Positions 57,751 through 63,679 of a stretch of 64,000 nt of DNA are shown one piece after another (position 1 is the first letter of the stretch; every line of letters starts with the position of its first letter). The notes beneath the pieces are model-generated. The model worked only from the letters and a program-made list of their open reading frames with translations. It did not search any database and had not been told where the DNA came from. Made by a program: the position numbers and the translations under genes. The stretch spans positions 65,742 through 129,741 of the forward strand of contig CAYVLZ010000001.1 of the NCBI GenBank assembly GCA_964452525.1, read 5' to 3'. The DNA comes from Candidatus Woesearchaeota archaeon (GTDB lineage Archaea > Nanobdellota > Nanobdellia > SCGC-AAA011-G17 > CAYFGV01).

Positions 57751-57881
57751 GCTCCTGTAGTCTAGTCCGGCCAAGGATGCAGTTGCTTTGCAGCAGAACC
57801 CTTTCGAGTAAGCTTTTTAGGAAAAGCTTAACCAAAAATCGAAGAAAGGCTGAGACCCGGGTTCAAATCCCGGCAGGAGCA
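57751..57881 (+). tRNA. tRNA-Glu (anticodon TTC) with two intervening segments (about 16 nt before and about 40 nt after the anticodon loop)
   Basis: Acceptor GCUCCUG/CAGGAGC+A. D-loop AGUCCGGCCAAGGAU and T-arm GACCCGGGUUCAAAUCCCGG are characteristic of archaeal tRNA-Glu. Loop CUUUCGA at 57801-57807. The anticodon stem CAGUU/GGCUG forms only after removing 57785-57800 and 57808-57847. Confidence 0.55.
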
Positions 57882-59157: not shown

Positions 59158-59775
59158 TAAGCTTTATATATAAGTCTGCTTCTTAAATCGTTACCTCATG
59201 AGGGAGATAGTGTTTTTATCTTCTAATAAATTTTCTTTGAGGGTAATTTATGAATACTTGATGTTTTATTAAGTATGATGTACAGACCTAGTAAGATAGT
59301 AGAGTTTCCTGCTAACTTTTTTTGCGATCACAATAATTCCCGTTGATCCTGCGGGAGGTTGCTGCTATTCGGATTCGACTTAGCCATGCAAGTCAGGGAG
59401 CTTCGGCTGCCGGCGTAAGGCTCAGTAACACGTAGTTAACTTACCCTTAGATCCAGGATAACCTCTGGGAAACTGAGGATAATACTGGATAAGGAATTGT
59501 TGCTGGAAGGCACTTTTCCTCAAAAGTAATGTCTAAGGATAGGACTGCGGCTGATTAGATTGTTGGTGAGGTAATGGCTCACCAAGTCTGGGATCAGTAG
59601 GGGGGATGAGAGTCCTAGCCCCGAGAAGGGCACTGAGAAACTGGCCCTAGTCCTAAGGGATGCAGCAGGCGCGAAACCTTTACAATGCACGAAAGTGTGA
59701 TAAGGGGATCCGAAGTGCTTTGCCTTTGGTAAAGCTTTTGTCAAGTGTAAATAGCTTGAAGAATAAGGAGTGGGT

Positions 59776-59809
<34 letters not shown>

Positions 59810-60192
59810 CTCCAAGTGGCAACCGTTTTTATTGGGTCTAAAGCGTCCGTAGCCGGTTTAGCAAATCTTTTGTGAAATTGTTCTGCTTAACAGAACAGCG
59901 TGCAAGAGACACTGTTGAACTTGGAACCGGGAGGGGATAGAAGTATTCTTTGGGGAGCGGTAAAATGCTATAATCCTTGGAAGACTACCTATGGCGAAGG
60001 CATCTATCCAGAACGGGTTCGACGGTGAGGGACGAAGGCTGGGGGAGCGAACAGGATTAGATACCCTGGTAGTCCCAGCAGTAAACGCTGCGAGCTGGGT
60101 GACGCGTGTTCTTCGAGGACATGCGGTGCCTAAGTGAAGACGTTAAGCTCGCCACCTGGGAAGTATGATCGCAAGATTGAAACTTAAAGGAA

Positions 60193-60828
60193 AGAGACTA
60201 AGAAGAAAACTATAAAAGGAATAAGATCCACTAATTACTATGGATAACAGTAAACTTTGTTATATATTGGGAGCATTGAGAGATTCAAGCATCGACATCA
60301 GGAAAGGGAAAAATTACGAGTTAAAGTTCAGTCAAAAGGATGAAAGATGGTTGTTTTATATATCTGACTTAATCTATTGTCTTTTTGGTGAGAGATTTAA
60401 TGTAAGAAATAATATGTTGAGGATTACCAACAAAAACATTGTATTAGAGATTCAAAATGTTTCAGAAATGGTTTCTCCACAAAAGTATTGGAAGACACCA
60501 TCTTTTGTTTTTAAGTTAGATGTTCTGGATTTAATTCCTTATATTCAAGGTTTCTGGGATGCTGAAGGTGGTTTACCTAGAAAACCTTTGATTGCTAAAC
60601 AGAAATATTTGTCTTTTGATCAGAAAAACAAACAATGTTTGTTTTTCTTGAGAACAAAATTGCTAAAGTTGGGATATAGACCAACAAACCTGACTTTTAC
60701 TAACCATGTTTGGCAATTTCGATTGACAAGAAAAAATGATATAATAAGTTATATTCAAAATATAGGTTCTTCACATCCCGAGAAATCTTCTCGAATGTTA
60801 AAAATGATTTCTTCTTTGTCTCCCTGAT
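60193..60828 (+). other. 16S rRNA intron 1 (~636 nt) inserted after AAAGGAA (E. coli ~position 908-915)
   Basis: Universal AAACUUAAAGGAAUUGGCGGGGGAGCAC is split at GGAA|UUGG by a 636-nt insert carrying a LAGLIDADG ORF. Confidence 0.75.
60240..60827 (+). CDS. LAGLIDADG homing endonuclease (16S intron-encoded)
   Basis: Two LAGLIDADG-type motifs: LCYILGALRDSS and YIQGFWDAEGG. The stop codon abuts the 3' splice site. Confidence 0.8.
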   Translation: MDNSKLCYILGALRDSSIDIRKGKNYELKFSQKDERWLFYISDLIYCLFGERFNVRNNMLRITNKNIVLEIQNVSEMVSPQKYWKTPSFVFKLDVLDLIPYIQGFWDAEGGLPRKPLIAKQKYLSFDQKNKQCLFFLRTKLLKLGYRPTNLTFTNHVWQFRLTRKNDIISYIQNIGSSHPEKSSRMLKMISSLSP

Positions 60829-61112
60829 TTGGCGGGGGCTCACCACAAGGAGTGGAGCGTGCGGTTTAATTGGATTCTACACCGGAAATCTCACCAGGAG
60901 CGATGGCAGGATGAAGGTCAGATTGAAGGTCTTACCTAACAGGCCAAGAGGAGGTGCATGGCCGCCGTCAGTTCGTGCCGTGAGGTATCATGCTAAGCCA
61001 TGCAACGAACGAGACCCATGCCTGTATTTGCTAACAGGTTTTTATGACTGAGCACAATACAGGGACCGCCTTCGAAAGGAGGAGGAAGGTGTGGGCAACG
61101 GTAGGTCAGTAT

Positions 61113-61173
61113 ACGCTGGAGCTTTCCTATTCATTCCAATGAATTGTGTGCTTATGTTAGCTTAGCGGCTAAA
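61113..61173 (+). other. 16S rRNA intron 2 (~61 nt, no ORF) between GGUAGGUCAGUAU and GCCCCGAAUCUCCUGGGCUACACGCG
   Basis: The conserved ~1210 region is interrupted by ACGCUGGAGCUUUCCUAUUCAUUCCAAUGAAUUGUGUGCUUAUGUUAGCUUAGCGGCUAAA. Boundaries ±3 nt. Confidence 0.5.
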
Positions 61174-61540
61174 GCCCCGAATCTCCTGGGCTACACGCGC
61201 GCAACAATGGTAAGGACAATGGGTCGCAACTCCGAAAGGAGAAGCCAATCCTCGAAACCTTGCCCTAGTTCGGATTGAGGACTGTAACTTGTTCTCATGA
61301 CGCTGGAATTCCTAGTAATCGGGTTTCATTATGGCCCGGTGAACATGTCCCTGAGCCTTGCACACACTGCCCGTCAAATCAACCGAGCAGGGTCTAGGTG
61401 AGGATTAATTTTTTGGTTAATTCGAACCTAGGTTCAGTAAGGTGGGTTAAGTCGTCACAAGGTAACCGTAGGGGAACCTGCTGTTGGATCACCTCCTTTT
61501 ATTTTTGAAGCTTTACTATACTAGAAGGTCTGTACTTTAT

Positions 61541-61711
61541 GGGCCCGTAGCTCAGTGGTAGAGCATCGCCCTTGCAAGAAACTTTTTGAGAAAGTTTCAT
61601 CAAAAATATCAAAAATAAGAACAAGAAAGGCGGGGGCCTCGGGTTCGAAAATAAGGATTGTATCCTTATCAACCTGCTTTTTAGTGAGTGTCGAGAGTCC
61701 CGACGGGTCCA
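61541..61711 (+). tRNA. tRNA-Ala (anticodon TGC) in the 16S-23S spacer, with a ~50-nt canonical intron and a second ~47-nt insertion in the T-loop
   Basis: GGGCCCG-UA-GCUC-AGUGGUA-GAGC-A-UCGCC-CUUGCA[intron]A-GGCGG-GGGCC-UCGGG-UUCGAA[insert]-CCCGA-CGGGUCC-A. Confidence 0.65.
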
Positions 61712-62327
61712 TACAAACTTTTTAAGAAAAAGTTTGATTAAAAAGTGAAAAAGTTTGAAAACTTTAAAACTTTGTTAGATATCATGTTTTTCATTTTTAA
61801 TAATGCAGCTCGATAATGAATATTTCGGGTGAAGAGCTTTAATATTTATTGAAGCTATGCATAGGCTATACTTCCCACGCCATTAGATGGATGACTTGGC
61901 TCAGAATGACGATGAAGAGCGTGGCAAGCTGCGATAAGCTTTGGGAAGGCGCATGCAGCCTTTGAACCAAAGATCCTTGAATGAGACTTCTTGTCTCTTT
62001 GAGACGATCAGTAGTGATCGGTGACGCGGTGAATTGAAGCGTCTTAGTAACCGCAGGAAAAGAAATCAAATGAGATGCCGTTATTATCAGCGAGAGAAAG
62101 CGGTATAAGACAAACCGAATTCTTATTAGAGATAATAAGAACATGTGGTGTTGTAGGACTTACTTTTAATCTTACTGGATGACTTAAAGTTCTCTGGAAA
62201 GAGATGCCTTAGAAGGTGACAGCCCTGTAGAGGAAGTCCAGAAGATGTGTAAGTATCCTGAGTAGGGCTCATTGGTTATTGAGTCTGAATTTGGGAGACA
62301 TTAACTTCCAATCTTAAATACATTCTG

Positions 62328-62360
<33 letters not shown>

Positions 62361-63010
62361 TTGAAAAGAACCCTTAACAGGGAGTTAAAAGATCCTGAAA
62401 TCTAATGGTAATGGTGTGATACTGCTCTTCGGAGTTGTATCGTGCGTTTTGAATAACGCGCCAGGGAGTGTATTTAAGTGGCGAAAGTAAATCTTTTGGA
62501 TGTACTTGAAAGGAAACTGAATGCTCGCAAGTAATGAGGAGCAGGGTATTAATGTGCCTTAAGTCACTTGGATACGACCCGAAACCAGGTGATCTAACCC
62601 TGAGCAAGGTGAAGCAATAGCGATATTGTGGAGGCCTGAAGAGGTGCTGTGGTAAAAGCGTTCTTCTGACTTGGGGTTAGGGGTGAAAAGCCAATCGAAC
62701 CTGGTGATAGCTGGTTCCTGTCGAAGTGGGCCGTAGTCCAGTCTCGAGCGAGATTGTTAGTATTGTAGAGCTACGGATTAGAAATTTAGGGGAAGAAATT
62801 CCTCGGTTTCTCGTCCAACTCCAAATGTGCTAATGTCATAGACCTCGGGAGACGGGGGTAGGCGGTAAGCGTCTATTCCGAGAGGGGAACAACCCTAACT
62901 GTAGTTAAGGTCCCAAAATACTGGTTAAGTGTTAAAGGGTGAAAGGTGTATATCTTCATAGACAGCGGGGAGGTAGGCTTAGAAGCAGCCATCCTTTAAA
63001 GAAAGCGTAA

Positions 63011-63679
63011 GTTGTTTACTAGCGATAACTTTATATAATCAGATGACTTAGAATACTATGCAGCTCACCTGTGATTTAGCTTATTTGCTTGGAGCTTTGA
63101 GAGACGGAACAGTCACAAGATATAAAGAAAAGAATAAAACACATAGTCATGTGACGTTCTATAGTAAAGACATTGAATGGTTAACATATCTACAGAAACT
63201 GTTTAATAAAGTTTTTCAAGAGGAGCTAAAAGTGAATAAGCCCAAAGGTGGTACAGCATATATACGAAAGTATTCTAAGGAACTCGTTAATCTTTTAGAA
63301 AAAAGATTTCAACATCCTGTTGGGAAACAGATAAAGTGGGAAACTCCAGATTCTTTGTTAAAATCTAGTAACAAAAAAATTTGGGCAAGTTATATTTCAG
63401 GTTTCTTCGATGCAGAAGGAGGGACAATTCCAGGAAGACAAATTATTTTTTACTTGTCAGGGGATGGAGAAAGATGCCCAGTTTTAGAAGACATTAAGAA
63501 GAAATTAAAAAGTATGTTTGACATTGATAGCGGAAAGGTAAGAGGATATGAAAATAAAAATGGAGTTTATCCTAGATTCTGTTTAAGGATAGCGAGTAAG
63601 AGAAGTAGAGCTTTATTTTGTGAGCATATAAAGCTTCATAATCCTAGTAAGATAATTAGGCTAGTAAACAGCCGCTAGA
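63011..63679 (+). other. 23S rRNA intron (~669 nt) inserted in the conserved GCGUAA|UAGCUCAC helix region (E. coli ~1090)
   Basis: Conserved sequence is split; flanking duplicated AGCUCACCUGU segments (intron 5' region and exon 2) are consistent with a BHB intron. Confidence 0.7.
63058..63678 (+). CDS. LAGLIDADG homing endonuclease (23S intron-encoded)
   Basis: LAYLLGALRDGTV and YISGFFDAEGG motifs. Clearly paralogous to the 16S intron ORF. The stop codon abuts the 3' splice site. Confidence 0.8.
   Translation: MQLTCDLAYLLGALRDGTVTRYKEKNKTHSHVTFYSKDIEWLTYLQKLFNKVFQEELKVNKPKGGTAYIRKYSKELVNLLEKRFQHPVGKQIKWETPDSLLKSSNKKIWASYISGFFDAEGGTIPGRQIIFYLSGDGERCPVLEDIKKKLKSMFDIDSGKVRGYENKNGVYPRFCLRIASKRSRALFCEHIKLHNPSKIIRLVNSR

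What the first reader, a model, noticed from the sequence alone, without database searches (positions are those of the whole stretch)
61541..61711. Spacer tRNA-Ala(UGC) carries two introns, one canonical and one inside the T-loop
The 16S-23S spacer tRNA-Ala has a ~50-nt insert after anticodon-loop position 37. A second ~47-nt insert, with an internal AUAAGGAU/AUCCUUAU hairpin, splits the T-loop between UUCGAA and the 3' T-stem strand. T-loop intron sites are known only from a few crenarchaeal/DPANN lineages and fit the pattern across this window.
Basis: seen in the sequence. Interest (0 to 1): 0.6.

Follow-up and report, generated by a model that had tools for sequence, protein, structure and literature searches.

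The report
Two-intron spacer tRNA-Ala in DPANN archaeon
The alanine tRNA gene between the 16S and 23S rRNA genes of this small AT-rich archaeon carries two short protein-spliced introns, one next to the anticodon and one in the T-loop; this is real but belongs to a known kind that turns out to be common in its relatives.

Summary
Window 61541-61711 (+) is a tRNA-Ala(UGC) gene in the 16S-23S spacer, split into three exons by a 51-nt intron at 37/38 (61577-61627) and a 48-nt intron at 59/60 in the T-loop (61650-61697). Removing both gives a perfect 72-nt tRNA-Ala with G3:U70, A73 and T-loop UUCGAAU.

At each junction the splice sites lie in two 3-nt bulges separated by a 4-bp helix, stacked on the anticodon stem or the T stem. 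This is the geometry cut by the archaeal splicing endonuclease. Both motifs are relaxed: an 8-bp hairpin follows the 5' bulge, but 22-23 extra bases separate it from the central helix.

One scan of GTDB species genomes found 48 more tRNA-Ala genes with an insert at this T-loop site, mostly Woesearchaeota/Nanoarchaeota MAGs, and 45 lie beside rRNA genes. A metagenome scan added one. In 39 of these 49 the 4-bp helix is fully paired in exactly this register, and R57 covaries with its intron partner. At least 16 also have the 37/38 intron.

Position 59/60 is a published non-canonical site. Verdict: interpretation supported; a new member of a known kind; modest interest.

The parts
61541..61711 (+). 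Complete tRNA-Ala(UGC) gene (three exons, two introns). G3:U70 is at 61543/61708 and discriminator A73 at 61711. No CCA is encoded; the next bases are TAC.
61541..61576 (+). Exon 1, tRNA positions 1-37
61577..61627 (+). Intron 1, 51 nt, canonical 37/38 site. Runs of A at both junctions mean a 1-nt shift of both cuts would give the same mature RNA.
   Evidence: ARAGORN reports this intron once intron 2 is removed
61571..61574 (+). Central helix H1, 5' strand CUUG (positions 32-35). It pairs with CAAG 61622-61625. The 5' bulge is C36 A37|A (61575-77).
   Evidence: pair probability 0.62 in the unconstrained ensemble
61622..61628 (+). H1 3' strand CAAG (61622-25) plus the 3' bulge AA|A (61626-28). 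A38 is 61628.
61578..61598 (+). Intron-1 hairpin GAAACUUU/AAAGUUUC (8 bp). It starts right after the 5' bulge and is followed by a 23-nt A-rich linker (61599-61621).
   Evidence: pair probability 0.94-0.97
61628..61649 (+). Exon 2, tRNA positions 38-59
61650..61697 (+). Intron 2, 48 nt, non-canonical 59/60 site in the T-loop
61644..61647 (+). Central helix H2, 5' strand UUCG (positions 54-57). It pairs with CGAG 61692-61695 (U54-G is a wobble pair). The 5' bulge is A58 A59|A (61648-50).
61692..61698 (+). H2 3' strand CGAG (61692-95) plus the 3' bulge AG|U (61696-98). U60 is 61698.
61651..61669 (+). Intron-2 hairpin AUAAGGAU/AUCCUUAU (8 bp). It starts right after the 5' bulge and is followed by a 22-nt linker (61670-61691). 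A weak alternative h' (AUA 61651-53 / UGU 61689-91) would make the motif strict.
   Evidence: pair probability up to 0.99
61698..61711 (+). Exon 3, tRNA positions 60-73
59273..59309 (+). Context: 5' strand of the 16S processing stem with a canonical 3-4-3 BHB (H AGUA 59290-93, bulge AGA 59294-96)
61506..61542 (+). Context: 3' strand of the 16S processing stem (H UACU 61519-22, bulge AGA 61523-25). The predicted cut leaves a leader of about 16 nt before the tRNA.

Best explanation
This is a functional spacer tRNA-Ala(UGC) gene of a Woesearchaeota-like DPANN archaeon, interrupted by two endonuclease-spliced introns at 37/38 and 59/60.

Shown here: the gene lies in the rRNA operon. In the pre-tRNA, loop nucleotides 32-35 (CUUG) and 54-57 (UUCG) can each pair with four intron bases lying 3-6 nt before the 3' splice site. 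This places both splice sites of each intron in 3-nt bulges either side of a 4-bp helix, stacked on the anticodon stem or the T stem.

Inferred from established knowledge of archaeal tRNA splicing: the splicing endonuclease EndA cuts after the second base of each bulge, and an RtcB-type ligase joins the three exons. RNase P and RNase Z trim the ends, and CCA is added because none is encoded. The same enzyme would also cut the canonical BHB in the 16S processing stem 16 nt upstream. Because both tRNA motifs are relaxed, a broad-specificity EndA is implied.
For: Removing 61577-61627 and 61650-61697 gives a 72-nt cloverleaf tRNA-Ala with G3:U70, A73 and T-loop UUCGAAU.

Both central helices are 4/4 paired in the exact register that restores 7-nt loops. 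Chance probabilities are 0.018 and 0.028.

From the two collection scans, 49 tRNA-Ala genes (48 GTDB species, 1 metagenome contig) carry an insert at the same T-loop site. There are 48 distinct intron sequences. In 39 of 49 the helix is 4/4 paired at the 3-nt-bulge offset, against 0-4 at other offsets, and N60 is U in 48 of 49.

R57 covaries with intron position -6: A:U 22, G:C 16, G:U 6, non-pairs 5. Most relatives form strict hBHBh' motifs.

Of the 48 GTDB loci, 41 are flanked by both the 16S 3' end and the 23S 5' end, and 4 more by one of them.

Sixteen relatives also have a 37/38 intron whose helix is 3-4 of 4 paired in register.

The window's T-loop intron shares a 10-mer (CTTTTTAGTG, p about 0.0015) and its end sequences with the intron of L020, its closest 16S relative. 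This points to vertical inheritance.

A strict BHB in the 16S processing stem shows that this transcript is an EndA substrate.

Literature: 59/60 is a listed non-canonical site (PMC4090602). An ARMAN-2 59/60 hBH intron was cleaved in vitro (PMC3239211). DPANN EndAs with an L3 loop are associated with increased tRNA gene disruption (PMC5829648).
Against: There is no RNA evidence. No EndA or ligase gene was identified in the window: only 10 ORFs were scanned in that search, so nothing can be said about the enzyme type.

Neither motif is a strict hBHBh'. For intron 1 no h' closes onto the central helix. For intron 2 only a 3-bp AUA/UGU alternative exists.

RNAfold gives the T stem and H2 only 0.13-0.16 probability in the full precursor, because a competing fold pairs the G-rich variable region with the 3' T-stem strand. 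The same program also misfolds the mature tRNA, preferring another structure by 8 kcal/mol, so this argument is weak.

The relatives were selected by a pattern that requires an insert, so how common the intron is within the clade is unknown.
Confidence: 0.9

Rival explanations
1. The T-loop insert is not removed. This spacer copy is a disabled tRNA pseudogene, or only an rRNA-processing scaffold, and alanine decoding relies on another gene.
For: Standard detectors miss the unspliced gene. The T-loop motif is relaxed and is disfavoured by RNAfold. Only 64 kb of the genome is visible.
Against: All exon features are intact, including G3:U70. The exons are nearly invariant while the introns differ in 48 of 49 relatives. 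The helix register and the R57 covariation are maintained. No other tRNA-Ala lies in the window.
Confidence: 0.04
2. The intron is spliced but at a different T-loop position (58/59 or 60/61), or by a route other than the BHB endonuclease.
For: The run of A at 61648-61651 allows alternative 5' cuts. The 5' bulge is not closed by a contiguous h' helix.
Against: Only the 59/60 register gives a 4-bp helix with two 3-nt bulges. Shifted registers give 0 of 49 relatives fully paired on the 5' side and 0-4 of 49 on the 3' side. U60 is conserved in 48 of 49. At 48 nt the insert is far too short for a self-splicing intron, and Rfam finds no intron family here at E up to 10.
Confidence: 0.05
3. The inserts are assembly or chimera artefacts of a metagenome bin.
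For: The source is unknown. A window protein was not found in the assembly index.
Against: The same architecture recurs in 49 independent assemblies. Other tRNAs and the rRNAs in this window carry introns of the same style.
Confidence: 0.01

Closest known systems
Archaeal non-canonical tRNA introns at 59/60: Thermoproteales multi-intron tRNAs and ARMAN-2 pre-tRNA-Cys(GCA) / pre-tRNA-Pro(GGG) (PMC4090602, PMC3239211)
   Same: The insertion site is the same. T-loop bases form the central 4-bp helix on top of the T stem, with 3-nt bulges. The motif is a relaxed hBH type, as in ARMAN-2 tRNA-Cys. The site is combined with a canonical intron in one gene.
   Different: The host is tRNA-Ala(UGC) inside an rRNA operon of a Woesearchaeota-like lineage. 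The intron is longer (48 nt against 13 nt in ARMAN-2 tRNA-Cys). Its hairpin is separated from the central helix by a 22-nt linker. No cleavage was tested here.
Canonical archaeal 37/38 BHB tRNA introns
   Same: Intron 1 has CUUG (32-35) paired with CAAG and the bulges CA|A and AA|A on the anticodon stem. The unconstrained MFE fold predicts this structure.
   Different: No h' helix closes the motif. An 8-bp hairpin plus a 23-nt A-rich linker replaces it, giving an hBH / bulge-helix-loop form.
BHB motifs in archaeal pre-rRNA processing stems
   Same: The same transcript carries a textbook 3-4-3 BHB flanking the 16S rRNA, and presumably the same enzyme cuts it.
   Different: That motif releases the 16S rRNA rather than an intron, and it is strict, whereas the tRNA motifs are relaxed.
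T-arm introns in eukaryotic nucleomorph and Cyanidioschyzon merolae tRNAs (PMC4090602, PMC3728597)
   Same: These are ectopic and multiple introns in tRNA arms that are removed by a protein endonuclease.
   Different: They are in eukaryotes and are often only 3-24 nt. The resemblance is not evidence of shared descent.

Membership tests
Archaeal endonuclease-spliced (BHB) tRNA intron | Removing the insert restores a complete cloverleaf tRNA with its identity elements | tested here: met
   The product is a 72-nt tRNA-Ala(UGC) with G3:U70, A73 and T-loop UUCGAAU.
Archaeal endonuclease-spliced (BHB) tRNA intron | Both splice sites lie in 3-nt bulges separated by a 4-bp helix, with the cut after the second bulge base | tested here: met
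   H1 is CUUG/CAAG and H2 is UUCG/CGAG, both 4/4 paired in register. Chance probabilities are 0.018 and 0.028. The register holds in 39 of 49 relatives.
Archaeal endonuclease-spliced (BHB) tRNA intron | Strict hBHBh' form: an outer helix h' closes directly onto the central helix | tested here: not met
   Intron 1 has no h'. Intron 2 has only a 3-bp AUA/UGU alternative. The 8-bp hairpins are separated from the central helix by 22-23 nt. The motifs therefore fit the published relaxed hBH/BHL class, not the strict class.
Archaeal endonuclease-spliced (BHB) tRNA intron | The genome encodes an EndA with broad substrate specificity and an RNA ligase | not testable with these tools
   None was found among the 10 window ORFs scanned for this purpose. 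The rest of the genome is not available. The literature reports L3-loop EndAs in DPANN (PMC5829648).
Archaeal endonuclease-spliced (BHB) tRNA intron | Spliced tRNA and excised intron are observed in RNA | not testable with these tools
   No transcript data are available.
Non-canonical 59/60 T-loop intron class | The insert lies between nucleotides 59 and 60, with T-loop bases 54-57 forming the central helix | tested here: met
   Searches show this in the window. In relatives, shifted 5' registers give 0 of 49 fully paired, and U60 is kept in 48 of 49.
Group I / group II self-splicing intron | A catalytic core of hundreds of nucleotides that matches the Rfam intron models | tested here: not met
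   The inserts are 51 and 48 nt. No intron family was found in 61490-61870 at E up to 10.
Split or permuted tRNA gene | Exons are encoded at separate loci or in permuted order | tested here: not met
   The three exons are colinear within 171 nt.

The most novel reading that the evidence does not exclude
The 59/60 intron of the rRNA-operon tRNA-Ala may be an ancient, vertically inherited feature across Woesearchaeota/Nanoarchaeota-type DPANN archaea, rather than a recent sporadic gain. It may be kept because locking the T-loop in a BHB ties tRNA-Ala maturation to EndA processing of the whole pre-rRNA transcript: the 16S and 23S stems, the rRNA introns and the tRNA introns would all be cut by one enzyme. 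That would run against the review statement that non-canonical introns are likely recent additions (PMC4033280).
Probability: 0.15. Interest if true: 0.55.

Novelty: new member of a known kind. Interest (0 to 1): 0.28.

Why it matters
The gene is an annotation trap. ARAGORN and the Rfam tRNA model both miss it, so genomes of this kind can appear to lack tRNA-Ala(UGC). It adds a clear, comparatively supported example of a 37/38 plus 59/60 two-intron tRNA in a DPANN lineage. Together with the 49 relatives, it shows that a T-loop intron in the spacer tRNA-Ala recurs widely in Woesearchaeota/Nanoarchaeota. It introduces no new mechanism. The rRNA operon could nevertheless serve as a compact natural substrate set for studying EndA specificity: one strict BHB, two relaxed tRNA BHBs and three rRNA inserts on one transcript.

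Tried and rejected
- Brute-force removal of two segments followed by ARAGORN, tried on the tRNA-Glu locus, was uninformative. ARAGORN accepted thousands of alternative splicings. Splice sites were therefore assigned from BHB geometry and comparison, not from detector acceptance.
- Unconstrained RNAfold does not favour the T-arm BHB. I discounted this because the same model misfolds the mature tRNA, preferring another structure by 8 kcal/mol.
- An exact-protein look-up to identify the source contig found nothing.
- A metagenome scan requiring both introns and identical exons found only one contig, L049, and it is not a close relative.
- A Pfam scan of 10 window ORFs found no EndA or RtcB. The remaining ORFs were not scanned for these enzymes.
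- Rfam at a permissive threshold found no group I intron in the spacer or in the large rRNA inserts.
- Neither tRNA-Ala intron contains a C box (UGAUGA) or a D box (CUGA), judged by eye from the sequence, so an intron-encoded C/D guide RNA is unlikely.
- A MAFFT alignment of the intron with those of its nearest relatives was too short to be decisive. The shared 10-mer test was used instead.
- No covariance model of the T-arm BHB was built. The exons are near-identical, so a hit would have been circular.

Full report
**What is there**

Rfam places an archaeal 16S rRNA at 59336-61497 and the start of a 23S rRNA at 61863. The window has 33% G+C. Between the two rRNAs, 61541-61711 reads as a tRNA-Ala(UGC) in three pieces:

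- Acceptor GGGCCCG (61541-47) pairs with CGGGUCC (61704-10). This includes the alanine identity pair G3:U70. A73 is at 61711.
- The D arm is 61550-64.
- Anticodon stem UCGCC (61566-70) pairs with GGCGG (61629-33), with loop CUUGCA before the first insert.
- T stem UCGGG (61639-43) pairs with CCCGA (61699-703), with UUCGAA before the second insert.
- No CCA is encoded.

ARAGORN in the tool's default mode and Rfam at gathering threshold both miss the gene. At a permissive threshold the Rfam tRNA model reaches 24 bits, below its 29-bit cut-off, by forcing a wrong 3' half. After deleting 61650-61697, ARAGORN finds tRNA-Ala(UGC) and itself reports a 51-nt intron at 37/38. After deleting both inserts, the 72-nt product is a clean cloverleaf with T-loop UUCGAAU.

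**Splice-site anatomy**

The archaeal splicing endonuclease recognises two 3-nt bulges on opposite strands separated by a 4-bp helix, and cuts after the second bulge base. This is established knowledge, summarised in PMC4090602 and PMC3239211.

- Intron 1: C32-G35 (CUUG, 61571-74) pairs with CAAG (61622-25). The bulges are C36 A37|A and A A|A38, and the motif stacks on the anticodon stem. The unconstrained MFE fold predicts exactly this, with pair probability 0.62.
- Intron 2: U54-G57 (UUCG, 61644-47) pairs with CGAG (61692-95). The bulges are A58 A59|A and A G|U60, and the motif stacks on the T stem. This fixes the site as 59/60.

In both introns an 8-bp hairpin begins immediately after the 5' bulge (61578-98 and 61651-69). 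It is followed by a 22-23-nt linker before the 3' strand of the central helix. The outer helix h' of a strict hBHBh' motif is therefore missing in intron 1. In intron 2 it is reduced to a possible 3-bp AUA/UGU helix. Both motifs belong to the published relaxed hBH (bulge-helix-loop) class.

Shuffling each intron gives a fully paired central helix in the required register with p = 0.018 and p = 0.028.

**A caveat from folding**

In the full precursor, RNAfold gives the T stem and H2 only 0.13-0.16 probability. A competing fold pairs the G-rich variable region with the 3' T-stem strand, and the intron linker CAACCUG with the 5' T-stem strand. As a control, the same program prefers a non-cloverleaf fold of the mature tRNA by 8 kcal/mol. 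I therefore do not treat this as evidence against the motif. The isolated T arm does fold into the BHB-like form.

**Comparative evidence**

A scan of one genome per GTDB species was run for GGCCNCGGGTTCRAA, then 25-55 nt, then CCCGNCGGGTCCA. It returned 48 loci. By deposited label these are 27 Woesearchaeota, 11 Nanoarchaeota/Nanoarchaeia, 1 Micrarchaeia, 1 Aenigmatarchaeota, 2 'archaeon', 5 'Methanosarcinales' and 1 'bacterium'. The last two labels are probably mis-assignments. A metagenome scan requiring both introns added one contig, L049.

- Genomic context: of the 48 GTDB loci, 41 have both the 16S 3' end and the 23S 5' end flanking the tRNA. Four have one flank, with the other cut off by the locus end. 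Three have neither.
- Taxonomic placement: the 16S 3' region is at most about 86% identical to the window (L020, L040, L017). The window's organism is therefore a Woesearchaeota-like archaeon without a close representative.
- Intron diversity: the 49 relatives carry 48 distinct intron sequences of 24 to about 49 nt.
- Helix register: in 39 of 49 the four bases at -6 to -3 pair fully with U54-R57 at exactly the 3-nt-bulge offset (94% of cells paired). Any other offset gives 0-4 of 49. Shifting the 5' strand gives 0 of 49. N60 is U in 48 of 49.
- Covariation: the one variable exon base in the helix, R57, covaries with its intron partner. The counts are A:U 22, G:C 16, G:U 6 and non-pairs 5 (window included). 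These sequences are related, so the counts are not independent events.
- Motif type: with the T stem and central helix enforced, 17 of the 50 sequences folded (49 relatives plus the window) form a hairpin that abuts both bulges, which is a strict hBHBh' motif. A further 15 are off by one base. Only the window and L030 carry a long extra segment after the hairpin.
- Second intron: at least 16 of 49 relatives also have a 37/38 intron whose helix is 3-4 of 4 paired in register. Six have additional D-arm inserts, and L022 has three inserts.

The window's two-intron arrangement is thus a common state in this clade.

**History of the window's T-loop intron (inference)**

Its 5' end (AAUAA...) and its 3' end (CUUUUUAGUG...CGA-GAG|U) match the intron of L020, the closest 16S relative. 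The shared 10-mer has p of about 0.0015 by shuffling. In L020 the AUAA/UUAU ends form h' directly. In the window an extra internal segment appears to have created a new hairpin with the 5' strand, while the old 3' strand decayed to UGU. This fits vertical inheritance with drift inside the only constraints that matter: the central helix and the bulges.

**Mechanism**

Shown: the gene sits in an rRNA operon whose 16S is flanked by a long processing stem (59273-59309 with 61506-61542, -37.5 kcal/mol). This stem contains a textbook 3-4-3 BHB: H is AGUA/UACU, both bulges are AGA, and the outer helices are 10 and 12 bp. It is by far the strongest BHB in a scan of the operon, whose remaining hits are close to shuffled background.

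Inferred: EndA cuts this stem, leaving a leader of about 16 nt before the tRNA, and also cuts both tRNA introns. An RtcB-type ligase joins the exons. RNase P, RNase Z and the CCA-adding enzyme finish the tRNA. The relaxed motifs imply a broad-specificity enzyme. PMC5829648 reports that L3-loop EndAs in several DPANN lineages go with increased tRNA gene disruption. No EndA gene was found among the 10 window ORFs scanned for it, so this step is untested here.

**Comparison with what is known**

Position 59/60 is listed among the standard non-canonical sites (PMC4090602). ARMAN-2 has 59/60 introns in tRNA-Cys and tRNA-Pro, and the former, an hBH motif, was cleaved in vitro by its epsilon-2 EndA (PMC3239211). 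Up to three introns per tRNA are known (PMC3239211, PMC4033280). I found no paper in the held library that describes the spacer tRNA-Ala T-loop intron of Woesearchaeota specifically. That is an absence in that library, not proof of novelty. The finding is a new member of a known kind.

**Rivals**

- A pseudogene is unlikely, given intact identity elements, conserved exons against divergent introns, and a maintained helix register.
- A different splice position is disfavoured by the register controls.
- Self-splicing is excluded by size and by Rfam.
- An assembly artefact is excluded by recurrence in 49 assemblies.

**Verdict**

Interest is modest. The most interesting open possibility is that this non-canonical intron is ancient and clade-wide in rRNA operons.

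Noticed in passing
window 35101-35627 (+): tRNA-Thr(UGU) carries a 453-nt intron at 37/38 with a strict BHB (H CUUG/CAAG, h 5 bp, h' 4 bp; cuts after 35137 and 35590). The intron encodes a 132-aa ORF (35193-35591) that matches Pfam PDDEXK_5 (PF11645, E 7.7e-22). From memory, this is the family of the I-Ssp6803I homing endonuclease. A protein-coding BHB intron in a tRNA looks unusual and may deserve its own follow-up.
   Followed up: partly
window 35629-35733 (+): Directly abutting tRNA-Thr is a tRNA-Val(GAC) with two apparent non-canonical inserts: about 16 nt in the D loop and about 17 nt in the variable region. Rfam misses it at gathering threshold, and ARAGORN reports only one odd intron. 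It was parsed by eye only.
   Followed up: partly
window 57751-57881 (+): This is tRNA-Glu(UUC) with two introns: 29/30 (57783-57798, 16 nt) and 37/38 (40 nt). ARAGORN miscalls it tRNA-Gln. Its canonical intron has the same layout as in tRNA-Ala: a 4-bp helix (CUUU/GAAG), 3-nt bulges, a 9-bp hairpin right after the 5' bulge, then an A-rich linker.
   Followed up: partly
window 60193-60825 and about 61113-61173 (within 16S): The 16S rRNA has two inserts that are absent from relatives. The 633-nt insert lies in the AAACTTAAAGGAA|TTGGCGGGGG region and holds a 195-aa ORF (60240-60827) with LAGLIDADG-like motifs; the Pfam match is weak (LAGLIDADG_3, E 0.003, below cut-off). The second insert is about 61 nt. 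Rfam gives no group I match for the large insert at E up to 1; the small one was not searched. The BHB boundaries are ambiguous.
   Followed up: partly
window 63010-63678 (within 23S): A 669-nt insert in the 23S is absent from relatives. It encodes a 206-aa LAGLIDADG_3 protein (63058-63678, E 1.5e-7). At its ends are a 4-bp helix AGCG/CGCU and a 13-bp h' (HBh'-type motif). There is no group I match.
   Followed up: partly
window 59273-59309 with 61506-61542: The 16S processing stem contains a canonical 3-4-3 BHB (H AGUA/UACU, bulges AGA/AGA). Its 3' strand runs up to the first two bases of tRNA-Ala.
   Followed up: yes
window 61670-61676 versus 61641-61648: The intron-2 linker CAACCUG is complementary to the 5' T-stem/T-loop strand (GGGUU.GA). 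RNAfold prefers this alternative fold for the precursor. It is not seen in the relatives folded (L020, L034, L039), so it is probably incidental.
   Followed up: partly
L001, L006, L019, L028, L048, L010: Five GTDB records labelled 'uncultured Methanosarcinales archaeon' and one labelled 'bacterium' carry a Woesearchaeota-like rRNA operon with the same T-loop-intron tRNA-Ala. Their 16S 3' ends are 81-84% identical to the window where enough of the 16S is held; L028 holds only 39 nt of it (92% identical). The deposited taxon labels are probably wrong.
   Followed up: no
L002, L022, L029, L030, L032, L033: These relatives carry an additional insert of about 30-45 nt in the D arm of tRNA-Ala. L022 combines D-arm, 37/38 and 59/60 inserts, making three introns. 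L007 and L030 are tRNA-Ala(CGC) genes outside rRNA operons that have the same 59/60 intron site.
   Followed up: no
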